A program made the position numbers and the translations under genes. The notes under the pieces were generated by a model. It was not told the origin of the DNA, searched no databases, and saw only the letters and a list, made by a program, of their open reading frames with translations. Positions 4,676-14,131 of a DNA stretch of 21,220 nucleotides are shown piece after piece. Origin of the DNA: a virus (lineage: Duplodnaviria > Heunggongvirae > Uroviricota > Caudoviricetes); IMG/VR virus record IMGVR_UViG_2547132274_000016, positions 1 through 21,220 of that record. The stretch is one strand, 5' to 3'. Position 1 is the first letter of the stretch. Each line of letters starts with the position of its first letter.

Positions 4676-6950
4676 AGCCTCCGGGCGTTTTGTCCCTCCG
4701 TCAGCATTTGCCGCAGGCACCGGTAAGGCGTTTACCGGTGCTTATGCATGGAACGCGCCACGCGAGGCTGTCGGGCGCGAAAGACCCCTTACACGTGACG
4801 AGATGCGTCAGGTGCAAGGTGTTTTATCCACGATTAACCGCCTGCCTTACTTTTTGCGCTCGCTGTTTACTTCACGCTATGACTACATCCGGCGCAATAA
4901 AAGCCCGGTGCACGGGTTTTATTTCCTCACATCCACTTTTCAGCGTCGTTTATGGCCGCGCATTGAGCGTGTGAATCAGCGCCATGAAATGAACACCGAC
5001 GCGTCGTTGCTGTTTCTGGCAGAGCGTGACCACTATGCGCGCCTGCCGGGAATGAATGACAAGGAGCTGAAAAAGTTTGCTGCCCATATCTCATCGCAGC
5101 TTTTCATGATGTATGAGGAACTCTGCGATGCCTGGGTGGATGCGCATGGCGAAAAAGAATCGCTGTTTACGGATGAGGCGCAGGCACATCTGTATGGTCA
5201 TGTTGCTGGCGCTGCACGTGCTTTCAATATTTCCCCGCTTTACTGGAAAAAATACCGTAAAGGGCAGATGACCACGAGGCAGGCATATTCTGCCATTGCC
5301 CGCCTGTTTAACGATGAGTGGTGGACTCATCAGCTTAAAGGCCAGCGTATGCGCTGGCATGAGGCGTTACTGATTGCTGTCGGGGAGGTCAATAAAGACC
5401 GTTCTCCTTATGCCAGTAAACATGCCATTCGTGATGTGCGTGCGCGCCGCCAGGCAAATCTGGAATTTCTTAAATCGTGTGACCTTGAAAACAAGGAAAC
5501 CGGCGAGCGCATCGACCTTATCAGTAAGGTGATGGGCAGTATTTCTAATCCAGAAATTCGCCGGATGGAGCTGATGAACACCATCGCCGGTATTGAGCGT
5601 TACGCCGCCGCAGAGGGTGATGTGGGGATGTTTATCACGCTGACCGCGCCGTCAAAGTATCACCCGACACGTCAGGTCAGAAAAGGCGAAAGTAAAACCG
5701 TCCAGCTAAATCACGGCTGGAACGATGAGGCATTTAATCCAAAGGATGCGCAGCGTTATCTCTGCCGTATCTGGAGCCTGATGCGCACGGCATTCAAGGA
5801 TAATGATTTACAGGCCTACGGTTTGCGAGTCGTCGAGCCACACCACGACGGAACGCCGCACTGGCATATGATGCTTTTTTGTAATCCACGCCAGCGTAAC
5901 CAGATTATTGAAATCATGCGTCGCTATGCGCTCAAAGAGGATGGCGACGAAAGAGGAGCCGCGCGAAACCGTTTTCAGGCAAAACACCTTAACCGGGGCG
6001 GTGCTGCGGGATATATCGCGAAATACATCTCAAAAAACATCGACGGCTATGCACTGGATGGTCAGCTCGATAACGATACCGGCAGACCGCTGAAAGATAC
6101 TGCGGCGGCTGTTACCGCATGGGCGTCAACGTGGCGCATTCCGCAATTTAAAACGGTTGGTCTGCCGACAATGGGGGCTTACCGTGAACTACGCAAATTG
6201 CCTCGCGGCGTCAGCATTGCTGATGAGTTTGACGAGCGCGTCGAGGCTGCACGCGCCGCTGCAGACAGTGGTGATTTTGCGTTGTATATCAGCGCGCAGG
6301 GCGGGGCAAATGTCCCGCGCGATTGTCAGACTGTCAGGGTCGCCCGTAGCCCGTCGGATGACGTTAACGAGTACGAGGAAGAAGTCGAGAGAGTGGTCGG
6401 CATTTACGCGCCGCATCTCGGCGCGCGTCATATTCATATCACCAGAACGACGGACTGGCGCATTGTTCCGAAAGTGCCGGTCGTTGAGCCTTTGACTTTA
6501 AAAAGCGGCATCGCCGCGCCTCGGAGTCCTGTCAATAACTGTGGAAAGCTCACCGGTGGTGATACTTCGTTACCGGCTCCCACACCTTCTGAGCACGCCG
6601 CAGCAGTACTTAATCTGGTTGATGACGGTGTTATCGAATGGAATGACCAGGAGGTCGTGAAGGCGCTAAGGGGCGCATTAAAACACGGGCTGAGAACGCC
6701 AAATCGTCAGCAAAGAAACGGAAGCCCGTTAAAACCGCATGAAATTGCACCATCGGCCAGACTGACACGGTCGGAACGAATGCAAATTACCCGTATTCGC
6801 GTTGACCTCGCTCAGAACGGTATCAGGCCGCAGCGATGGGAGCTTGAGGCGCTGGCGCGTGGCGCGACCGTAAATTATGACGGGAAAAAATTCACGTATC
6901 CGGTCGCTGATGAGTGGCCGGGATTCTCAACAGTAATGGAGTGGACATGA
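4665..6950 (+). CDS. A: Replication initiation endonuclease A (rolling-circle nickase, P2 gpA-like)
   Basis: 761 aa from MAVKASGRF (track ORF starts 14 codons earlier); contains the HxH metal motif region ...EPHHDGTPHWHMMLF...; length equals P2 A. Confidence 0.9.
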   Translation: MAVKASGRFVPPSAFAAGTGKAFTGAYAWNAPREAVGRERPLTRDEMRQVQGVLSTINRLPYFLRSLFTSRYDYIRRNKSPVHGFYFLTSTFQRRLWPRIERVNQRHEMNTDASLLFLAERDHYARLPGMNDKELKKFAAHISSQLFMMYEELCDAWVDAHGEKESLFTDEAQAHLYGHVAGAARAFNISPLYWKKYRKGQMTTRQAYSAIARLFNDEWWTHQLKGQRMRWHEALLIAVGEVNKDRSPYASKHAIRDVRARRQANLEFLKSCDLENKETGERIDLISKVMGSISNPEIRRMELMNTIAGIERYAAAEGDVGMFITLTAPSKYHPTRQVRKGESKTVQLNHGWNDEAFNPKDAQRYLCRIWSLMRTAFKDNDLQAYGLRVVEPHHDGTPHWHMMLFCNPRQRNQIIEIMRRYALKEDGDERGAARNRFQAKHLNRGGAAGYIAKYISKNIDGYALDGQLDNDTGRPLKDTAAAVTAWASTWRIPQFKTVGLPTMGAYRELRKLPRGVSIADEFDERVEAARAAADSGDFALYISAQGGANVPRDCQTVRVARSPSDDVNEYEEEVERVVGIYAPHLGARHIHITRTTDWRIVPKVPVVEPLTLKSGIAAPRSPVNNCGKLTGGDTSLPAPTPSEHAAAVLNLVDDGVIEWNDQEVVKALRGALKHGLRTPNRQQRNGSPLKPHEIAPSARLTRSERMQITRIRVDLAQNGIRPQRWELEALARGATVNYDGKKFTYPVADEWPGFSTVMEWT

Positions 6951-7402
6951 TGGCAAAAATTCACGAGGTAAAGCTGCACGCAAAATATTTCGACCTTGTG
7001 CTGGAAGGAAAGAAACGCGCAGAGTTTCGGAAAAATGACCGTAATTATGAGCGCGGGGACACGTTGATTTTGCATGAATGGGTGCAGGGTGTGTACACGG
7101 GGCGAAAGGTTGAAGCCCGGATAACAGATGTTACTGACCTGTCAGACTGGCTGGAAGATTATGTATTGCTAAGTATTGAGCTGCTTAATACAGGCACATA
7201 TGAGATTGTGAACTGGAAAGAACTTAGTGAGCGTGGTCTGGTATTCAGAATTAATCATGAAATTATGCATCAGCTCGGCCTTGCTGTTATGTATGAACCA
7301 GAGACGGGGATGTCTGGCGGGGCAATGGTTGCCATGGATGGAGCATGGAACTATTCAGATGAACAGATGGAGCGTGCACAGCAAAACGGGTGGCTTGGAT
7401 AA
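6947..7402 (+). CDS. DUF3850/ASCH-like (PUA-fold) domain protein, cargo gene 1
   Basis: Start ATG overlaps the A stop (ATGA); N-terminal ~70 aa (KIHEVKLHAKYFDLVLEGKKRAEFRKNDRNYERGDTLILHEW) resembles ASCH/DUF3850 domains; assignment from motif memory only. Confidence 0.55.
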   Translation: MMAKIHEVKLHAKYFDLVLEGKKRAEFRKNDRNYERGDTLILHEWVQGVYTGRKVEARITDVTDLSDWLEDYVLLSIELLNTGTYEIVNWKELSERGLVFRINHEIMHQLGLAVMYEPETGMSGGAMVAMDGAWNYSDEQMERAQQNGWLG

Positions 7403-7608
7403 TGCACAGAATACCAGGCGAGATACCGCACCATAAAACTAAAAATATCAAGCTGATGGCTATTGTTCAGCGTTTACAGCGGATTATGGTCAACGAAAAT
7501 CTGACGCCAGATGAGCTAGTCGGGTGTGCCGAAATAGTCCGGGATAATTACGGGCGGTTTAACCATATCGGTCAATCAAGAGTTACGCCACCACCACGCA
7601 GACGATAG
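7402..7608 (+). CDS. Small hypothetical protein, cargo gene 2
   Basis: 68-aa ORF whose ATG overlaps the upstream TAA (TAATG); basic C-terminus (PPPRRR); no recognisable domain. Confidence 0.4.
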   Translation: MHRIPGEIPHHKTKNIKLMAIVQRLQRIMVNENLTPDELVGCAEIVRDNYGRFNHIGQSRVTPPPRRR

Positions 7609-7837
7609 AGAACGCCGCCAGTCGTGAAACTTGTTTTCAGGGCTGGCGGGGTTGAACAACGAGCGAAGCGAGGCGTTAGTTGACAGTCATATTTTTACTG
7701 CGTTGGTGCTGGTTTTTGACGGTTGAAAGGAGTTAGCTCGGAGAGCTAAAGCTAACAACTTACAAATATTCAAAAGTAAGCTTCCTGTTGCTAACATAAG
7801 GTCGATTTTTTATGTGGATGATGCAAAAAGGATAGCT

Positions 7838-8569
7838 ATGGATATTGTAATCGCTTTTCTATCACTCGCTTTTTTCGTTGCTTTTTTCATCGGGTTAATC
7901 AAGCCATCACTGGTGCGGATGCCAAACCGTAAACGTGCAAGTGCGGTTTATCTCGGAGGTGGTTTTGCATTGAGCATAATTGGTTCAATACTCTACCCAA
8001 CAGAAAAAAGCCAGCCAGTTGCTAAAACTGAAACAGCAACCGTAGCAGAACACCAGGCTCAAAAAACATTCGAATATACTGAAAAAACACTCAAGGAATA
8101 TCGGAACGAGCCAAAGAAGACTCGACACGATATTGTGAATAGTTACATTAACTTTAAGAAAGTGCCAGTCACCGCATCAGATGCATTTTATGCCTGCATG
8201 AGTGAGTATACATTTACCAAAGATGATGAGTTGAAACTCGGTGATGTTCTTGGGTGGTGCTTTAATGATTATGAAAATGACCCGAATTCACTAAACAATA
8301 AAATCAATCTTGATACATTTCAGAGCAATTTTAGTGGTTGGGATGGTTCTTATCGTCCATTGGAAAAACTAATTAAAGATAATATGAACGATGATTCATC
8401 TTATAAACATGTGTCAACGGTATATCATTTGGTTTTGAATAAAGACCCGCACGCCATTGTGAAAACCACATTTCGTGGCACTAATGCTTATGGAGGAGTA
8501 GTTAAACAGACTATTGCTGCGCGTGTCGACATCCGAACGGGCGAAGTCGTTTCAGTATTAGATAACTAA
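7838..8569 (+). CDS. Membrane-anchored hypothetical protein (two N-terminal TM helices plus ~175-aa soluble domain), cargo gene 3
   Basis: AAGGA RBS 5 nt before the ATG at 7838 (track ORF from GTG 7814); hydrophobic stretches IVIAFLSLAFFVAFFIGLI and AVYLGGGFALSIIGSIL; AT-rich codon usage unlike the phage backbone. Confidence 0.6.
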   Translation: MDIVIAFLSLAFFVAFFIGLIKPSLVRMPNRKRASAVYLGGGFALSIIGSILYPTEKSQPVAKTETATVAEHQAQKTFEYTEKTLKEYRNEPKKTRHDIVNSYINFKKVPVTASDAFYACMSEYTFTKDDELKLGDVLGWCFNDYENDPNSLNNKINLDTFQSNFSGWDGSYRPLEKLIKDNMNDDSSYKHVSTVYHLVLNKDPHAIVKTTFRGTNAYGGVVKQTIAARVDIRTGEVVSVLDN

Positions 8570-8572
8570 TCG

Positions 8573-8634
8573 TTGATGCCGTATTGACACTTGTTATACT
8601 AGTGGTGGAACGAGACTGTAATAGTCTGTTCCAC
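8573..8634 (+). promoter_or_regulatory. Candidate sigma70 promoter (TTGATG-16 bp-TGtTATACT) followed by a 30-bp imperfect palindrome (operator or 5'-UTR hairpin)
   Basis: -35-like TTGATG 8573..8578, extended -10 TGTTATACT 8592..8600; palindrome GTGGAACgagACTgtaatAGTctgTTCCAC 8605..8634 directly downstream; GAGGGA RBS at 8673. Confidence 0.35.
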
Positions 8635-8681
8635 TACAGGAGTAATTACCTTGACTGTAAGTTGCTTTTATTGAGGGAACT

Positions 8682-9971
8682 ATGAAGTTTAAGACTGAAT
8701 TGAGTCGAAAATTGCATGACTCGGTAGTGTTTGATTTGAAAAAAGACCTGGTAAAATTAGAGGGAAACCTAAAAAATACAGATTTGTTGTTGTCGTTTCA
8801 GTTCAAAATAATAAGGAATATAATTAGAAGTGAAAGGATGATCAAAGAATTAAAGTCTTTCTTAGGGGAACTAAAGGCAACAAAAAGAAAAGGTGGTTTA
8901 AAAAAAGAACAATCTAAACTTATTAAGGAAAATATTAAGAGTGTTGAGCAGGGTATTGATGATGTGAAATTTAAAATATATATCTTCAAAATGTTTGGTG
9001 ATAGTGTTGCTTTTTTGTATTTGGATAAGTTTGATATTAAGCATTTTTTTTATAATGTTGTGGATTACAGTCCCAAGGAGTCAGCGGGCTATATGGGAGG
9101 GAAGGATGGCTTAAAAGAAGAATGGGAATTGGTGAAGAAGGCCTGCAAGGCTGGTGTTCCTACGTTACTCAATGATATTACAATGAGTATGAGGCATGGT
9201 GATGTTTGTTTACTTGGTGAAGGTGCACCAGTACTGGTGGAGGTGAAATCAAGTCAAAATAAAAATGATCGTGTTGAACGTCAAAAAAATAACCTTAATA
9301 GACTAGCTGAATTTTTAGCAGAAGATAAAGCTGAAGATTTTAGAGGGATGCCATTAGTGTTAAGGAAAGAACTGTGTTTTTCAGAAGTTACATATAAAAA
9401 AGAATTTAATGAGCATCTGAATGTATGCAGGAAAAAAGGAATTTCATGGGTAAGGCTAGAAGATGGATTTTATGTGGTATCTAATCGTGGCTGTGATCTG
9501 GAAATAGCATTATCACAGTTGGATCTTAGAGGGAGGAAAATTGCACCTATATTTTTGAATGAATATAAAAATAATCAATTGTGGGTTCCTTTAACTCCGT
9601 TTGTTAATCTTATAAATGATGCGCGTGATTTGTGTGACTTTATAAATGGGGAGTTAACTATTCTCTGTGTTCTTGATTTGGATTGTTTTAAACAAATAGC
9701 TTTGAATGAAGGGTTTGAGCTTGTTTTTGTCGATGGTGAAGACTATTCGATGATATTTAAAGAATTTGGTAGCTCATTGATTTGGGGTGTGTCATGGCAA
9801 ATGATGCTTCGCACTCCTTTAGAAATGGTGTCAATGTCTTGGTTAATTAAAGATTCAATTGATAGATTTAAGCGTTTACAAAAGCAACATGCTGAGATGC
9901 AGCCTGTCACTGATGTTAATACATCCGAAACCTCCTTGTTTGAAAAATATAGGCCTCTTTTTACAAAGTAG
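8682..9971 (+). CDS. Hypothetical protein with PD-(D/E)xK-like nuclease motif, cargo gene 4
   Basis: 429 aa, strong RBS; K/E-rich N-terminal region, then GD(174)-x12-VLVE(187)VK(189) resembling the PD-(D/E)xK catalytic core; no P-loop; very AT-rich. Confidence 0.6.
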   Translation: MKFKTELSRKLHDSVVFDLKKDLVKLEGNLKNTDLLLSFQFKIIRNIIRSERMIKELKSFLGELKATKRKGGLKKEQSKLIKENIKSVEQGIDDVKFKIYIFKMFGDSVAFLYLDKFDIKHFFYNVVDYSPKESAGYMGGKDGLKEEWELVKKACKAGVPTLLNDITMSMRHGDVCLLGEGAPVLVEVKSSQNKNDRVERQKNNLNRLAEFLAEDKAEDFRGMPLVLRKELCFSEVTYKKEFNEHLNVCRKKGISWVRLEDGFYVVSNRGCDLEIALSQLDLRGRKIAPIFLNEYKNNQLWVPLTPFVNLINDARDLCDFINGELTILCVLDLDCFKQIALNEGFELVFVDGEDYSMIFKEFGSSLIWGVSWQMMLRTPLEMVSMSWLIKDSIDRFKRLQKQHAEMQPVTDVNTSETSLFEKYRPLFTK

Positions 9972-10108
9972 TCAGATGCTGTAGGTGTATATGCTATTGC
10001 ATTAATTTGCATGCAAAACAAGTAGAGGTAAAAACTCTTACAGGCTGCTTGGGGGATAGCTTTTGAATGCTAATGCATTTGCATTCAAATTGCCCCACGA
10101 AGCGGGCG

Positions 10109-10127
10109 GGCGAGGCGGGGAAAGCAC
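10109..10127. other. Candidate cos cohesive-end sequence (GGCGAGGCGGGGAAAGCAC)
   Basis: GC-rich non-coding stretch between cargo and Q, where cos lies in a P2 prophage; 19-mer matches my recollection of the P2 cohesive end (to be verified). Confidence 0.5.
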
Positions 10128-10269
10128 TGCGCGCTGGCGGTGGTGCTGATTTTATTTTTTCAGCGTCTGAGCGCGTCGTGGCAGCGTTTAGTCTGCCCGT
10201 TGGGGTGTTGGTGTGTCTGCGGGGTATTTTGTGCGGTGGTGAGCGTGTGAGGGCGTGATGACGGGATGT

Positions 10270-10291
10270 AAAAAAGCCGCCCGCAGGCGGC
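10270..10291 (-). terminator. Intrinsic terminator downstream of Q (end of P-Q operon)
   Basis: GC hairpin GCCGCC-cgca-GGCGGC (10276..10291) followed on the minus strand by a U-run (A-run 10270..10275 on plus strand), 5 nt after the Q stop. Confidence 0.55.
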
Positions 10292-10296
10292 GATGT

Positions 10297-11331
10297 TCAG
10301 CCGTTGTCAGTGTCCAGTGAGTAGTTTTTAAAGCGGATGACCTCCTGACCGAGCCAGCCGTTTATTTCCCGAATCCTGTCCTGTAACGGGATAAGCTCAT
10401 TGCGGACAAAGACCTTTGCCACTTTCTCAATATCGCCCAGTGACCCGACGTTCTCCGGCTTGCCGCCCATCAACTGAAAGGGGATGCGGTGCGCGTCCAG
10501 CAGGTCTGCGGCGCTGGCTTTTTTGATATTAAAAAAATCATCCTTCGTTGCCACTTCACTGAGCGGGATAATTTTAATGCCGTCGGCTTTCCCCTGTGGG
10601 GCATAGAGAAACAGATTTTTAAAGTTATTGCGGCCTTTCGACTTCACCATGTTTTCGCGGAGCATTTCGATATCGTTGCGATCCTGCACGGCATCGGTGA
10701 CGTACATGATGTATCCGGCATGTGCGCCGTTTTCGTAATACTTGCGGCGGAACAGCGTGGCTGATTCATTCAGCCAGGCAGAGTTAAGGGCGCTGAGATA
10801 TTCCGGCAGGCCGTACAGCTCCTGATTAATATCCGGCTCCAGCAGGTGAAACACGGAACCGGGCGCGAAGGCTGTCGGCTCGTTGAAGGACGGCACCCAC
10901 CAGTAAACATCCTCTTCCACACCACGGCGGGTATATTTTGCCGGTGAGATTTCCAGTCTGATGACCTTACCGGTGGTGCTGTAACGCTTTTCCAGAAACG
11001 CATTACCGAACACCAGAAAATCCAGCACAAAGCGGCTGAAATCCTACTGGGAAAGCCACGGATGCGGGATAAATGTCGAGGCCAGAATATTACGTTTGAC
11101 GTAAATCGGTGAGCTGTGATGTACGGCAGCACGCAGGCTTTTTGCCAGACCGGTAAAGCTGATCGGTGGCTCATACCATCTGCCGTTACTGATGCACTCG
11201 ACGTAATCCAGAATGTCACGGCGGTCGAGTACCGGCACCGGCTCACCAAAGGTGAATGCCTCCATTTTCGGGGCGCTGGCGGTCATTTTTTTTGCCGCAG
11301 GTTGCGGTGTTTTCCCTTTTTTCTTGCTCAT
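10297..11331 (-). pseudogene. Q: Portal protein gpQ interrupted by one in-frame TAG codon at 11044..11046
   Basis: Two ORFs (11044..11331, 95 aa; 10297..11028, 243 aa) are in the same frame and separated only by TAG; together ~344 codons as in P2 Q; reading through gives ...PWLSQ*DFSRFVLDFLVF... Confidence 0.6.
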
Positions 11332-13103
11332 CAGTAAAACTCCAGAATGGTGGATGTCAGCGGGGTGCTGATACCGGCGGTGAGTGGCTCATTTAACAGG
11401 GCGTGCATGGTCGCCCAGGCGAGGTCGGCGTGGCTGGCTTCCTCGCTGCGGCTGGCCTCATAGGTGGCGCTGCGTCCGCTGCTGGTCATGGTCTTGCGGA
11501 TAGCCATGAACGAGCTGGTGATGTCGGTGGCGCTGACGTCATATTCCAGACAGCCACGGCGGATAACGTCTTTTGCCTTGAGCACCATTGCGGTTTTCAT
11601 TTCCGGCGTGTAGCGGATATCGCGCGCGGCGGGATAGAACGAGCGCACGAGCTGGAACACGCCGACACCGAGGCCGGTGGCATCAATTCCGATGTATTCA
11701 ACGTTGTATTTTTCGGTGAGTTTGCGGATGGATTCCGCCTGGGTGGCAAAGTCCATGCCTTTCCACTGGTGACGCTCAAGTATTCTGAATTTGCCACCGG
11801 CCACCACCGGCGGTGCCAGCACCACGCATCCGGCACTGTCGCCACGGTGTGACGGGTCGTAACCAATCCATACCGGACGGGAGCCGAACGGATTGGCGGC
11901 AAACGGTGCGTAGTCTTCCCATTCTTCCAGTGTGTCGACCATGCAGCGTTGCAGCTCCTCGAACGGGAATACCGACGCCTTGTCGTCAACAAATTCACAC
12001 ATGAACAGGTTTTTAAAATCGTCGGCGCTGTTTTCGCGTTTGAGCTGCTCAATGTCGAACAGTGTGCAGCCACCTTTCAGGGCGTCCTCAATGGTGACAA
12101 TCTGCCGCCACTGGCCGTCCGCACAGAGAAGACCTCCGGCAAGGGCGTTATGACTGACGTCGATTTCCACGCGTTCGGCGGCGCTGGCGCGTCCCCGGTT
12201 GAACAGTTCACCCGACCAGAACGGGTAGGCGTCGTGCGCCAGCGTGGACGGGGTGGAGAAATAGGTCGAGCGCAGGTGACTCTGTGAGGCCATACCTGAT
12301 GCCACCTTACGCAGTACCTGAAAATTCGGGATCCAGAAAATCTCATCGACGTACAGGTCGCCGTTATGGCTCTGTGCGGTGTTGGAGTTGGTGCCGAGAA
12401 AAATCAGTTTTGCGCCGTTATTGCCCAGGACAATCGGGTCACCGGTCAGGTCAACGTCAACCAGCCGGGCAAAGGCGATGATGTATTCGCGGAACACATA
12501 CGCCTGCGTTTTACTGGCCGACAGAAAAATCTGGTTATGACCGGTTTTCAGGGCGCGCAGCAGCGCCTCGCGGGAAAAATAAAACGTCGCGCCAATCTGG
12601 CGGGATTTCAGGATATCGCGGATGCGGTGCTCAAGCCCGGCGCGATACCAGTGCAACTGATAGTCGAAAGACTGCTCAAAGAAAATCTGCTCCAGCTTTT
12701 CGATGGCCTCGTCACTGAAAAAATTCTTTTTCGGTTTGCGACGCGCGCCTTTGTTGCGGTTAGCGACGTTCGGATTAAGGTCTGCCTCGTTGCCGGTCTG
12801 ACTGTAACGGTTTACCCGTGCCAGTCGTTCAATCTGGCGTCCCAGCAGGTCAATTTCCTTGAAGTCACCGCCGGTTTTCTGCGGTTTGATGATGAGCTGG
12901 GTCAGCCGCGCTTCCAGACTCATTTCGACACGGCTGATGGGGGCAACACTGTCCCAGCCGTCGCGCTGTTTCCAGCTCTGCACCGTCGGGCGTTTCATCT
13001 GCAACATGGCGGCAATCTGCGGCACGGAAAACCCCTGCCAGTACAGCAGCGCCGCCTGACGACGCGGGTCGTGTAAAAGAGTGGTGTCTGTGGTGATGGT
13101 CAT
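11331..13103 (-). CDS. P: Terminase large (ATPase) subunit gpP
   Basis: 590 aa from the ATG at 13101..13103 (track ORF uses an upstream TTG); stop overlaps Q start; length and position as P2 P. Confidence 0.9.
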   Translation of the reverse strand: MTITTDTTLLHDPRRQAALLYWQGFSVPQIAAMLQMKRPTVQSWKQRDGWDSVAPISRVEMSLEARLTQLIIKPQKTGGDFKEIDLLGRQIERLARVNRYSQTGNEADLNPNVANRNKGARRKPKKNFFSDEAIEKLEQIFFEQSFDYQLHWYRAGLEHRIRDILKSRQIGATFYFSREALLRALKTGHNQIFLSASKTQAYVFREYIIAFARLVDVDLTGDPIVLGNNGAKLIFLGTNSNTAQSHNGDLYVDEIFWIPNFQVLRKVASGMASQSHLRSTYFSTPSTLAHDAYPFWSGELFNRGRASAAERVEIDVSHNALAGGLLCADGQWRQIVTIEDALKGGCTLFDIEQLKRENSADDFKNLFMCEFVDDKASVFPFEELQRCMVDTLEEWEDYAPFAANPFGSRPVWIGYDPSHRGDSAGCVVLAPPVVAGGKFRILERHQWKGMDFATQAESIRKLTEKYNVEYIGIDATGLGVGVFQLVRSFYPAARDIRYTPEMKTAMVLKAKDVIRRGCLEYDVSATDITSSFMAIRKTMTSSGRSATYEASRSEEASHADLAWATMHALLNEPLTAGISTPLTSTILEFY

Positions 13104-13276
13104 GAATACCTCGCCGTGATGAATACACGGCAAGGCTACTGAGTCGCGCCCCGCGATTCGCTAAGGTGCTGTTGTGTCAGTGATAAGCCATCCGGGACTG
13201 ATGGCGGAGGATGCGCATCGTCGGGAAACTGATGCCGACATGTGACTCCTCTAATCACTATTCAGGACTCCTGACA
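13104..13276. promoter_or_regulatory. Divergent late promoter region (PP leftward / PO rightward)
   Basis: 173-bp intergenic region between divergent P and O, as in P2; contains inverted repeat CCGTG-N7-CACGG (13114..13130); no exact TGT-N12-ACA activator box found. Confidence 0.4.
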
Positions 13277-14131
13277 ATGGCAAAAAAAGTCTCAAAATTC
13301 TTTCGTATCGGCGTTGAGGGTGACACCTGTGACGGGCGTGTCATCAGTGCGCAGGATATTCAGGAAATGGCCGAAACCTTTGACCCGCGAGTCTATGGTT
13401 GCCGCATTAACCTGGAACATCTGCGCGGCATCCTGCCTGACGGTATTTTTAAGCGTTATGGCGATGTGGCCGAACTGAAGGCCGAAAAGATTGACGATGA
13501 TTCGGCGCTGAAGGGCAAATGGGCGTTGTTTGCGAAAATCACCCCGACCGATGACCTTATCGCGATGAACAAGGCCGCGCAGAAGGTCTACACCTCAATG
13601 GAAATTCAGCCGAACTTTGCCAACACCGGCAAATGTTATCTGGTGGGTCTGGCCGTCACCGATGACCCGGCGAGCCTCGGCACGGAATACCTGGAATTCT
13701 GCCGCACGGCAAAACACAACCCTCTGAACCGCTTCAAATTAAGCCCTGAAAACCTGATTTCAGTGGCAACGCCCGTTGAGCTGGAATTTGAAGACCTGCC
13801 TGAAACCGTGTTCACCGCCCTGACCGAAAAGGTGAAGTCCATTTTTGGCCGCAAACAGGCCAGCGATGATGCCCGTCTGAATGACGTGCATGAAGCGGTG
13901 ACCGCTGTTGCTGAACATGTGCAGGAAAAACTGAGCGCCACTGAGCAACGCCTTGCTGAGATGGAAACCGCCTTTTCCGCACTTAAGCAGGATGTGACTG
14001 ACAGGGCGGATGAAACCAGCCTGGCATTCACCCGCCTGAAAAACAGTCTCGACAACACCGAAAGTCTGACCCAGCAGCGCCGCAGCAAGGCCACCGGTGG
14101 TGGCGGTGACGCCCTGATGACGAACTGCTGA
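13277..14131 (+). CDS. O: Capsid scaffolding protein gpO
   Basis: 284 aa from MAKKVSKFF (track ORF starts upstream); length and position as P2 O; C-terminal coiled-coil-like region. Confidence 0.88.
   Translation: MAKKVSKFFRIGVEGDTCDGRVISAQDIQEMAETFDPRVYGCRINLEHLRGILPDGIFKRYGDVAELKAEKIDDDSALKGKWALFAKITPTDDLIAMNKAAQKVYTSMEIQPNFANTGKCYLVGLAVTDDPASLGTEYLEFCRTAKHNPLNRFKLSPENLISVATPVELEFEDLPETVFTALTEKVKSIFGRKQASDDARLNDVHEAVTAVAEHVQEKLSATEQRLAEMETAFSALKQDVTDRADETSLAFTRLKNSLDNTESLTQQRRSKATGGGGDALMTNC

What the first reader, a model, noticed from the sequence alone, without database searches (positions are those of the whole stretch)
7838..9971. Candidate undescribed two-gene anti-phage module in the P2 A-to-cos cargo slot
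These two genes sit where P2 carries tin and old, a slot reported as a hotspot for exchangeable antiviral cargo in P2-like phages (Rousset et al. 2022). The pair is a membrane-anchored protein plus a protein with a nuclease-like motif, each with its own strong RBS and upstream intergenic region. Neither resembles P2 Old (no P-loop ATPase, wrong size) or any phage structural or replication protein I recognise. I cannot assign them to a named defence family from sequence alone.
Basis: partly seen in the sequence, partly recalled or inferred. Interest (0 to 1): 0.85.

Follow-up and report, generated by a model that had tools for sequence, protein, structure and literature searches.

The report
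Two separate phage cargo genes
The two genes are real and sit in the known P2 anti-phage hotspot, but they are two independent single-gene cassettes: a homologue of phage 186 Orf97, which is recorded as blocking infection, and a lone predicted nuclease from a large, unnamed family that often sits next to known defence genes.

Summary
Window 7838-8569 (243 aa, two N-terminal membrane helices) and 8682-9971 (429 aa, invariant D...ExK nuclease motif) are intact genes between replication gene A and cos of a P2-like prophage.

The two-gene-module reading does not hold.
- Gene 1 is 79% identical to coliphage 186 Orf97, which GenBank annotates as 'expression from plasmid blocks 186 infection'. It stands alone in 186 and is followed by unrelated genes in other P2-like phages.
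- Gene 2 stands alone between A and the portal gene in a Citrobacter P2-like prophage, and it also occurs in P4-like satellite hotspots.
- Gene 2 has no conserved neighbour in 76 loci from diverse phyla.
- Rousset et al. 2022 list the two genes as separate single-gene P2-hotspot entries (#12 and #138). A motif search found neither in their tables of tested systems.

Gene 2 belongs to a large family with no Pfam, NCBIfam or PADLOC model (1375 clusters at 50% identity). The model shows a coiled-coil hairpin, a PD-(D/E)xK-like core and a C-terminal domain. Its immediate neighbours include Dsr1, Mokosh MkoA and Lamassu LmuB.

Best reading: an Orf97-type superinfection-exclusion protein plus an unrelated candidate single-protein nuclease defence. 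Neither activity was tested here.

The parts
7738..7837 (+). About 100 bp leader of gene 1, homologous to the tum-orf97 spacer of phage 186 (region of the t95a partial terminator). The window has no tum gene and no p95/LexA site.
   Evidence: The alignment with 186, S164 and a Klebsiella prophage shows homology starting about 100 nt before the ATG. The 186 features come from GenBank U32222. No promoter reached the scan threshold in 7609-7837.
7838..8569 (+). Gene 1: Orf97-family protein, 243 aa. It has two N-terminal membrane helices with a +5 charged loop between them. A linker leads to a helical domain with two invariant cysteines, then a helix plus four-strand sheet. Predicted to be an inner-membrane protein facing the periplasm and acting in superinfection exclusion.
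8573..8600 (+). Promoter-like site for gene 2 (TTGATG, 16 nt, TATACT, with TG before the -10), starting 4 nt after the gene 1 stop codon.
   Evidence: Consensus scan. This is a consensus match only, not evidence of function. The upstream region is not conserved among gene 2 homologues in other contexts.
8602..8637 (.). Inverted repeat (GTGGTGGAAC ... GTTCCACTAC) just downstream of the promoter-like -10, in the gene 2 leader. Possible operator or 5'-UTR hairpin; role unknown.
   Evidence: the repeat finder pair I15, 10 nt arms, 90% complementary; sequence read directly.
8682..9971 (+). Gene 2: solitary 429-aa protein. Residues 13-113 form a coiled-coil hairpin. Residues about 125-235 form a PD-(D/E)xK-like core (E147, D174, E187, K189, Q201). 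Residues 239-406 form a C-terminal alpha/beta domain (R377 invariant). Candidate single-protein nuclease defence.
   Evidence: phrog_14906. No Pfam, PADLOC or NCBIfam hit. AF2 pLDDT 89.5 with canonical strand/helix order. Invariant residues. The family has 1375 clusters. No conserved partner. Defence genes are neighbours. It is Rousset Table S5 entry #138.
10062..10127 (.). cos region of the phage, not part of the cargo. It comprises a conserved ATGCA/TGCAT palindromic element (10062-10089) and the 19-nt GGCGAGGCGGGGAAAGCAC sequence (10109-10127).
   Evidence: Palindrome I2. Conserved with S164, a Citrobacter prophage and an E. coli prophage. The same 19-mer appears in the P4 sequences of Rousset Table S2. 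That this 19-mer is the P2/P4 cohesive end is from my own knowledge.

Best explanation
The interval holds two unrelated, independently mobile single-gene cassettes that lie next to each other in the P2 A-to-cos hotspot.

Gene 1 is an Orf97-family inner-membrane protein. Its two N-terminal helices most likely place a cysteine-paired domain of about 190 aa in the periplasm. From there it would block infection by related phages at or near DNA entry (superinfection exclusion).

Gene 2 is a stand-alone enzyme of a large unnamed family. It has a long coiled-coil hairpin, a PD-(D/E)xK nuclease core and a conserved C-terminal domain. It most likely acts as a single-protein anti-phage nuclease. I infer that it is held inactive until infection is sensed through the non-catalytic domains, and that it then cuts DNA.

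Shown here: homology, architecture, conserved motif, solitary distribution, hotspot and defence-island context. Inferred: membrane topology, the stage at which gene 1 blocks infection, the substrate and trigger of gene 2, and any defence phenotype of gene 2.
For: Independence of the two genes:
- Gene 1 stands alone before cos in phage 186.
- In other prophages gene 1 is followed by unrelated genes: two-TM proteins, an HNH-like protein, and others.
- It is present in 84 of 5426 complete E. coli genomes, against 17 for gene 2.
- A gene 2 homologue is the only gene between A and the portal gene in a Citrobacter prophage.
- Gene 2 homologues lie between psu and int in P4-like elements.
- The largest non-self neighbour cluster over the 80 fetched loci spans only 4 loci.
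- Rousset Table S5 lists them as separate single-gene entries, #12 and #138. Their P4 table lists gene 2 homologues as #32 and #37.

Gene 1 function:
- The GenBank U32222 note says 'expression from plasmid blocks 186 infection'.
- It has two hydrophobic helices with a loop carrying 5 positive and 0 negative charges.
- Its only two cysteines are invariant.
- The best fold matches are the periplasmic chaperones HdeA and HdeB.

Gene 2 function:
- D107, G143, E147, D174, E187, K189, Q201 and R377 are invariant in 111 sequences averaging 24% column identity.
- The AF2 model (pLDDT 89.5) places them on a helix-strand-strand-strand-helix core, as in PD-(D/E)xK enzymes.
- Scattered weak hits go only to PD-(D/E)xK families: Card1_endonuc, PDDEXK_9, NOV_C, Cas4, CARF_PDDEXK.
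- Immediate neighbours include full-length Dsr1 (2), MkoA, LmuB (2), plus GajA, SduA_C, PD-T4-6-type kinases and integrases.
Against: - No experiment on this gene 1 allele or on any gene 2 homologue was found.
- The Orf97 phenotype rests on a one-line GenBank note. In 186 the gene belongs to the SOS operon, which the window lacks.
- In all 17 E. coli genomes carrying this gene 2 allele, gene 1 is directly upstream on the same strand. Cooperation in this particular arrangement is therefore not excluded.
- Some gene 2 homologues sit among housekeeping genes with no sign of a defence island.
Confidence: 0.6

Rival explanations
1. One reading: genes 1 and 2 form one two-gene defence module, with a membrane protein as sensor or effector working with the nuclease.
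For: - The genes are adjacent on the same strand, 112 bp apart.
- Every E. coli genome with this gene 2 allele also has gene 1 upstream.
- Pairs of a membrane protein and an enzyme are common in defence systems of this hotspot (Rousset et al.).
Against: - Each gene occurs without the other in related phages.
- Gene 1 is paired with at least four unrelated downstream genes.
- The gene 2 family has no recurrent partner.
- Gene 2 has its own promoter-like site and a different G+C, 34% against 39%.
- Homology with other prophages breaks inside the 3' end of gene 1. This suggests gene 1 serves as a recombination anchor and is not a functional partner.
Confidence: 0.07
2. Gene 2 is a selfish or housekeeping DNA nuclease with no role in phage defence, for example a homing-endonuclease-like, resolvase-like or repair enzyme. 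It spreads on its own or promotes recombination at hotspots.
For: - It shows a solitary, sporadic distribution with no fixed neighbours.
- In an alphaproteobacterial genome it is inserted among housekeeping genes.
- In Vibrio it sits next to a large serine recombinase at an element boundary.
- There is a weak Hjc (resolvase) hit in 2 members.
- Here and in P4-like elements it lies in the hotspot next to cos, a region of intense recombination.
Against: - It recurs in two independent curated anti-phage hotspots, P2 and P4.
- It is next to Dsr1, Mokosh, Lamassu, Gabija and Shedu genes in unrelated genomes.
- At about 400 aa, with a coiled coil and an extra conserved domain, it is unlike compact homing enzymes.
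Confidence: 0.17
3. Gene 1 does not act in phage exclusion in this context. It may instead be a lysogenic-conversion or stress factor (a membrane-tethered periplasmic chaperone-like protein), or a factor acting during prophage induction.
For: - The best fold matches are the acid-stress chaperones HdeA and HdeB.
- In 186 the gene is in the LexA-controlled SOS operon with the antirepressor tum.
- No mechanism has been published in the searched literature.
Against: - The 186 record states that plasmid expression blocks 186 infection.
- Nearly every copy looked at lies in the cos-proximal accessory slot of P2/186-type prophages. The exception is Photorhabdus, where it sits beside ogr and tail genes at a prophage end.
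Confidence: 0.2

Closest known systems
Coliphage 186 Orf97 (GenBank U32222, AAC34191; PHROG 3403)
   Same: Gene 1 is 78.7% identical over residues 19-243, has the same 243-aa length and the same place as last or near-last gene before cos. About 100 bp of its leader is also homologous.
   Different: In 186 it follows tum in the LexA-controlled p95 operon. Here tum and the LexA site are absent, and an ASCH/DUF3850 gene plus a 50-aa ORF precede it. No mechanism is known for either protein.
Rousset et al. 2022 hotspot catalogue (P2 entries #12 and #138; P4 entries #32 and #37)
   Same: The listed protein sequences match gene 1 (#12) and gene 2 (#138, near identical). The P4 entries are gene 2 homologues. 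All are listed as hypothetical proteins, and #12, #138 and #32 as single genes.
   Different: A motif search found neither sequence in their Table S2 of tested systems, so the catalogue gives occurrence only. Entry #37 carries an extra 72-aa protein that this locus lacks.
Shedu (SduA), a single-protein PD-(D/E)xK nuclease defence
   Same: Both are one protein of about 400 aa with a PD-(D/E)xK-type core and a non-catalytic N-terminal region. Both are found in defence islands. Shedu genes are even direct neighbours of gene 2 homologues in 2 loci.
   Different: There is no match to SduA_C/DUF4263 or to any PADLOC Shedu model. The coiled-coil hairpin and the conserved C-terminal domain are specific to this family. 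No phenotype is known.
P4 cII of gop-beta-cII / sce7726 family (PD-(D/E)xK-like)
   Same: The local motif pattern is similar: R-x-D ... E-[IV]-K-S ... R-x-x-x-Q. Both are hotspot cargo of P2/P4 elements.
   Different: The similarity is not significant: NCBIfam E 0.086 against a cutoff of 70 bits, and hhalign probability 0.3%. Size and architecture differ, and cII works within a three-gene system.
P2 Old and Tin, the canonical cargo of this slot
   Same: Same genomic slot and same general role as phage-borne cargo.
   Different: No sequence relationship was found. There is no P-loop and no PADLOC hit.

Membership tests
Phage 186 Orf97 family (PHROG 3403) | Full-length sequence homology to 186 Orf97 | tested here: met
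   tblastn gives 78.7% identity over residues 19-243, E 1e-120. phrog_3403 covers 1-243 of 243 positions, E 1e-145.
Phage 186 Orf97 family (PHROG 3403) | Position in the cos-proximal accessory region of P2/186-type phages | tested here: met
   True for the window, 186, and Klebsiella and Salmonella prophages. One exception: in Photorhabdus it sits beside ogr and tail genes.
Phage 186 Orf97 family (PHROG 3403) | Blocks infection by 186 when expressed | not testable with these tools
   Only the GenBank note for the 186 gene is available. This allele has not been tested.
PD-(D/E)xK nuclease superfamily (gene 2) | Conserved acidic/lysine catalytic motif D...(D/E)xK, with an upstream glutamate | tested here: met
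   E147, D174, E187 and K189 are invariant in 111 diverse homologues.
PD-(D/E)xK nuclease superfamily (gene 2) | Core alpha-beta-beta-beta-alpha-beta fold | tested here: inconclusive
   The AF2 secondary-structure order fits, with motif residues at the expected places: H142-156, E161-163, E175-177, E184-186, H196-214, E216-220. No significant structural match to a known nuclease was found.
PD-(D/E)xK nuclease superfamily (gene 2) | Significant profile match to a described PD-(D/E)xK family | tested here: not met
   The best hits are all below the curated cutoffs: PDDEXK_9 0.0022, Card1_endonuc 0.0013, NOV_C 0.03, Cas4 0.013. There is no PDB sequence hit.
Shedu (SduA) | SduA_C / DUF4263 nuclease domain | tested here: not met
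   No Pfam PF14082 hit and no PADLOC Shedu hit, for the window protein or among the 25 most-matched families over 111 relatives.
P2 Old / Tin | Old: P-loop ATPase plus Toprim nuclease. Tin: sequence homology. | tested here: not met
   No GxxxxGK[ST] motif. No PADLOC or Pfam hit.
   Gene 1 occurs without gene 2 in 186 and many prophages. Gene 2 occurs without gene 1. No recurrent neighbour was found in 76 loci.
Validated anti-phage defence system (any) | Experimentally shown protection against phage | not testable with these tools
   Motif and accession searches of the held supplements of Rousset 2022 (Table S2), Vassallo 2022 and DefensePredictor found neither gene among tested systems. The supplements of the 2026 P2/P4 paper are not held.

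The most novel reading that the evidence does not exclude
Gene 2 founds a widespread family of single-protein anti-phage nucleases that has no model in Pfam, NCBIfam or PADLOC. The family has 1375 clusters at 50% identity, from Proteobacteria to Chloroflexi and Acidobacteria. In this reading, a long coiled-coil hairpin and a conserved C-terminal domain gate a divergent PD-(D/E)xK core. This sensing and activation logic would differ from Shedu and other known nuclease defences.
Probability: 0.45. Interest if true: 0.65.

Novelty: new variant of a known kind. Interest (0 to 1): 0.5.

Why it matters
Gene 2 gives a concrete, easily cloned candidate (1.3 kb, one gene, own promoter) for a new single-protein defence family. 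The family is widespread, has no model in Pfam, NCBIfam or PADLOC v2, and recurs in two curated anti-phage hotspots and beside Dsr1, Mokosh and Lamassu genes. If it is active, its coiled-coil plus nuclease design would add a new sensing architecture.

Gene 1 links a 1990s observation on phage 186 Orf97 to a family carried by many Enterobacterales prophages. The predicted periplasmic topology makes the mechanism testable.

The finding also shows how neighbouring hotspot cassettes can be mistaken for an operon. Gene 1 appears to act as the left-hand homology anchor for swapping the downstream cargo.

Tried and rejected
- Pfam, PADLOC, NCBIfam and PHROGs scans of both proteins gave only unknown-function PHROGs.
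- Scanning every member of the gene 2 family (25, then 111 sequences) gave only sub-threshold PD-(D/E)xK hits and coiled-coil noise.
- PDB sequence searches with profiles found nothing relevant.
- Foldseek against the PDB found nothing below E 0.5.
- hhalign of the family against P4 cII aligned the motif, but without significance.
- A LexA-box search found nothing above chance near gene 1.
- The gene 2 upstream region is not conserved among homologues in other contexts.
- Accession and motif searches in the supplements of DefensePredictor and Vassallo 2022 were negative. A full-text search for two accessions was also negative.
- Domainator tested only a Lamassu variant from its P4 hotspot survey.
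- The 2026 P2/P4 paper names new P4 systems, including single-gene 'Toga'. Its sequences are not held, so identity with the gene 2 homologue cannot be checked. Its description (Gao_Ppl/SMC-like) suggests an ATPase, which gene 2 is not.
Full report
**What is there.** The window is a P2-like (Peduovirus-type) prophage. It carries integrase, C repressor, cox, B and replication gene A on the left. The portal Q, terminase P, scaffold O and capsid N genes lie on the right. A 99.6% identical E. coli locus is annotated this way.

Between A (ending 6950) and cos (about 10109-10127) lie four ORFs:
- an ASCH/DUF3850 protein, 6950-7402;
- a 50-aa ORF, 7456-7608;
- gene 1, 7838-8569, 243 aa;
- gene 2, 8682-9971, 429 aa.

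Both finding genes have good ribosome-binding sites. G+C drops from 52-54% in the flanking phage genes to 39% in gene 1 and 34% in gene 2.

**Gene 1 is a known gene family.** It matches PHROG 3403 end to end and is 78.7% identical to Orf97 of coliphage 186. In GenBank U32222, orf97 is the last gene before cos.

About 100 bp of leader upstream of gene 1 is homologous to the 186 tum-orf97 spacer. The window has neither tum nor a convincing LexA box.

More than 160 clusters of homologues, almost all 243 aa, occur across Enterobacterales. Those examined lie in 186/P2-type prophages.

**Gene 1 structure and likely topology.** The AlphaFold model has pLDDT 81.5 and shows these features:
- two hydrophobic helices, 2-21 and 31-52;
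- a loop between them with five positive and no negative charges;
- a disordered linker;
- a helix plus four-strand sheet.

The only two cysteines, C120 and C141, are invariant. By the positive-inside rule this suggests a cytoplasmic loop and a periplasmic, disulfide-bonded C-terminal domain. That arrangement fits a superinfection-exclusion protein acting at the envelope. The topology and the stage of the block are inferences.

**The two genes are not a module.**
- In phage 186, Yersinia, Erwinia and Salmonella phages, the Orf97 gene has no gene 2.
- In S164, P2_4A7b, P2_2H4 and in Klebsiella and Salmonella prophages it is followed by unrelated genes. These include two-TM proteins, an HNH-like protein and others with no mutual similarity across groups.
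- In complete E. coli genomes gene 1 occurs in 84 of 5426, and gene 2 in 17.
- Nucleotide homology with other prophages stops 15-43 nt before the gene 1 stop codon. This suggests gene 1 is the left homology arm for swapping what lies downstream.
- A 70%-identical gene 2 homologue is the only gene between A and the portal gene in a Citrobacter P2-like prophage.
- A 50%-identical homologue lies between psu and int of P4-like elements in Pluralibacter and E. coli.
- More distant homologues sit beside a serine recombinase in Vibrio, beside an HTH-peptidase M78 gene in Ramlibacter, and among housekeeping genes in an alphaproteobacterium.
- Rousset et al. 2022 (PMC9122126) list gene 1 as P2-hotspot entry #12 (210 occurrences, single gene, '2 TM') and gene 2 as entry #138 (16 occurrences, single gene). 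Gene 2 homologues are P4-hotspot entries #32 and #37. A motif search found none of them in their table of tested systems.

**Gene 2 belongs to a large unnamed family.** A profile search of 1.84 billion representatives found 1375 clusters at E <= 0.001 and 467 at E <= 1e-30. Nearly all of the 150 best hits listed are 350-460 aa and matched over most of the profile.

Eighty loci from 80 species span Proteobacteria, Acidobacteria, Chloroflexi, Planctomycetes, Bacteroidetes, Nitrospinae and others. No Pfam, NCBIfam or PADLOC model matches the window protein, and none matches the family consistently.

The AlphaFold model is confident (pLDDT 89.5, pTM 0.89) and shows three parts:
- a helical hairpin of about 100 residues (13-113);
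- a core with the order helix 142-156, strands 161-163, 175-177 and 184-186, helix 196-214, strand 216-220;
- a further alpha/beta domain, 239-406.

Across 111 sequences with 24% mean column identity, the invariant residues are D107, G143, E147, D174, E187, K189, Q201 and R377. E147, D174 and E187-x-K189 fall where a PD-(D/E)xK enzyme has its catalytic residues.

**Context of the gene 2 family.** I called ORFs around the 80 loci and clustered 884 neighbours. Apart from the family itself (76 loci), no cluster spans more than 4 loci, so there is no conserved partner.

Among the 142 immediate neighbours are:
- three SIR2_2 proteins, two of them full-length Dsr1 (E = 0), in Bordetella and Pseudomonas;
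- a full-length Mokosh MkoA in Rhizobium;
- LmuB-type SMC proteins in Sphingobium and an Acidobacteriaceae genome;
- GajA, SduA_C and PD-T4-6-type kinases;
- integrases.

Together with recurrence in the P2 and P4 hotspots, this is standard guilt-by-association evidence for an anti-phage role. It is not proof.

**Local regulation.** A promoter-like site with an extended -10 lies 4 nt after the gene 1 stop (8573-8600). It is followed by an inverted repeat at 8602-8637. These features are not conserved in homologues elsewhere. The palindrome at 10062-10089 is part of the conserved cos region and does not belong to the cargo.

**Mechanism proposed.**
- Gene 1: a membrane-anchored periplasmic protein that blocks entry of related phages.
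- Gene 2: a stand-alone nuclease gated by its coiled coil and C-terminal domain, activated on infection, and cutting DNA. It would work like Shedu in outline, but it is not a member of that family.

Rivals are a true two-gene module (about 7%), a selfish or housekeeping nuclease with no defence role (about 17%), and a non-exclusion role for gene 1 (about 20%).

**Novelty and score.** Gene 1 is a new member of a known, poorly studied family. Gene 2 is catalogued but uncharacterised, and is best called a new variant of a known kind (single-protein nuclease defence) until it is tested. I could not exclude that a 2026 study of P4 hotspots (PMC13586616) tested a homologue, because its sequences are not held. 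Interest is 0.5. This is a good experimental candidate, but the headline claim of an undescribed two-gene module is not supported.

Noticed in passing
window 6950-7608: Between gene A and gene 1 lie an ASCH/DUF3850 protein (150 aa, also matching DUF7415) whose start codon overlaps the A stop codon, and a 50-aa ORF (phrog_11386). Rousset's table lists this arrangement as 'DUF3850/ASCH + hypothetical + hypothetical'. Their role in the hotspot is unknown.
   Followed up: partly
window 8526-8569: Nucleotide homology with other Orf97-carrying prophages ends at several discrete points 15-43 nt before the gene 1 stop codon. The 3' end of gene 1 may therefore be a recombination junction for swapping the downstream cargo.
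   Followed up: partly
window 8602-8637: An inverted repeat (GTGGTGGAAC / GTTCCACTAC) lies directly after a promoter-like site in the gene 2 leader. It could be an operator or an RNA hairpin. It is not conserved upstream of homologues elsewhere.
   Followed up: partly
window 7351-7403: A one-mismatch LexA-box-like sequence (CTATTCAGATGAACAG) lies just upstream of a promoter-like site at the end of the ASCH gene, ahead of the 50-aa ORF. Such matches occur at chance frequency in the window (9 found, 6.3 expected).
   Followed up: no
Rousset 2022 Table S1, P4 entry #37 (no locus fetched): A more distant gene 2 homologue in P4-like satellites (it begins MRFPQYQCGF and keeps RHGDV...IEVK) is listed together with a 72-aa second protein. 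Some branches of the family may therefore have a small accessory partner.
   Followed up: no
L024 7113-8486 (E. coli 07-4299 P4-like satellite): In this P4-like element the gene 2 homologue (WP_000742539) shares the psu-int hotspot with a 457-aa hypothetical protein on the opposite strand (WP_001406847). It is probably a second, separate cargo gene.
   Followed up: no
L006 and L022 (Vibrio cholerae, V. parahaemolyticus), 6001-13400: The Vibrio homologues sit immediately after a 572-aa large serine recombinase, at the edge of an element inserted beside or near dksA. The element is made of small genes with almost no Pfam hits and may be an uncharacterised satellite or island.
   Followed up: no
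L015 5001-5750 (Photorhabdus): An Orf97 homologue (54% identity) lies at the other end of a P2-type tail gene cluster, next to ogr and gpD. It is not in the A-to-cos slot.
   Followed up: no
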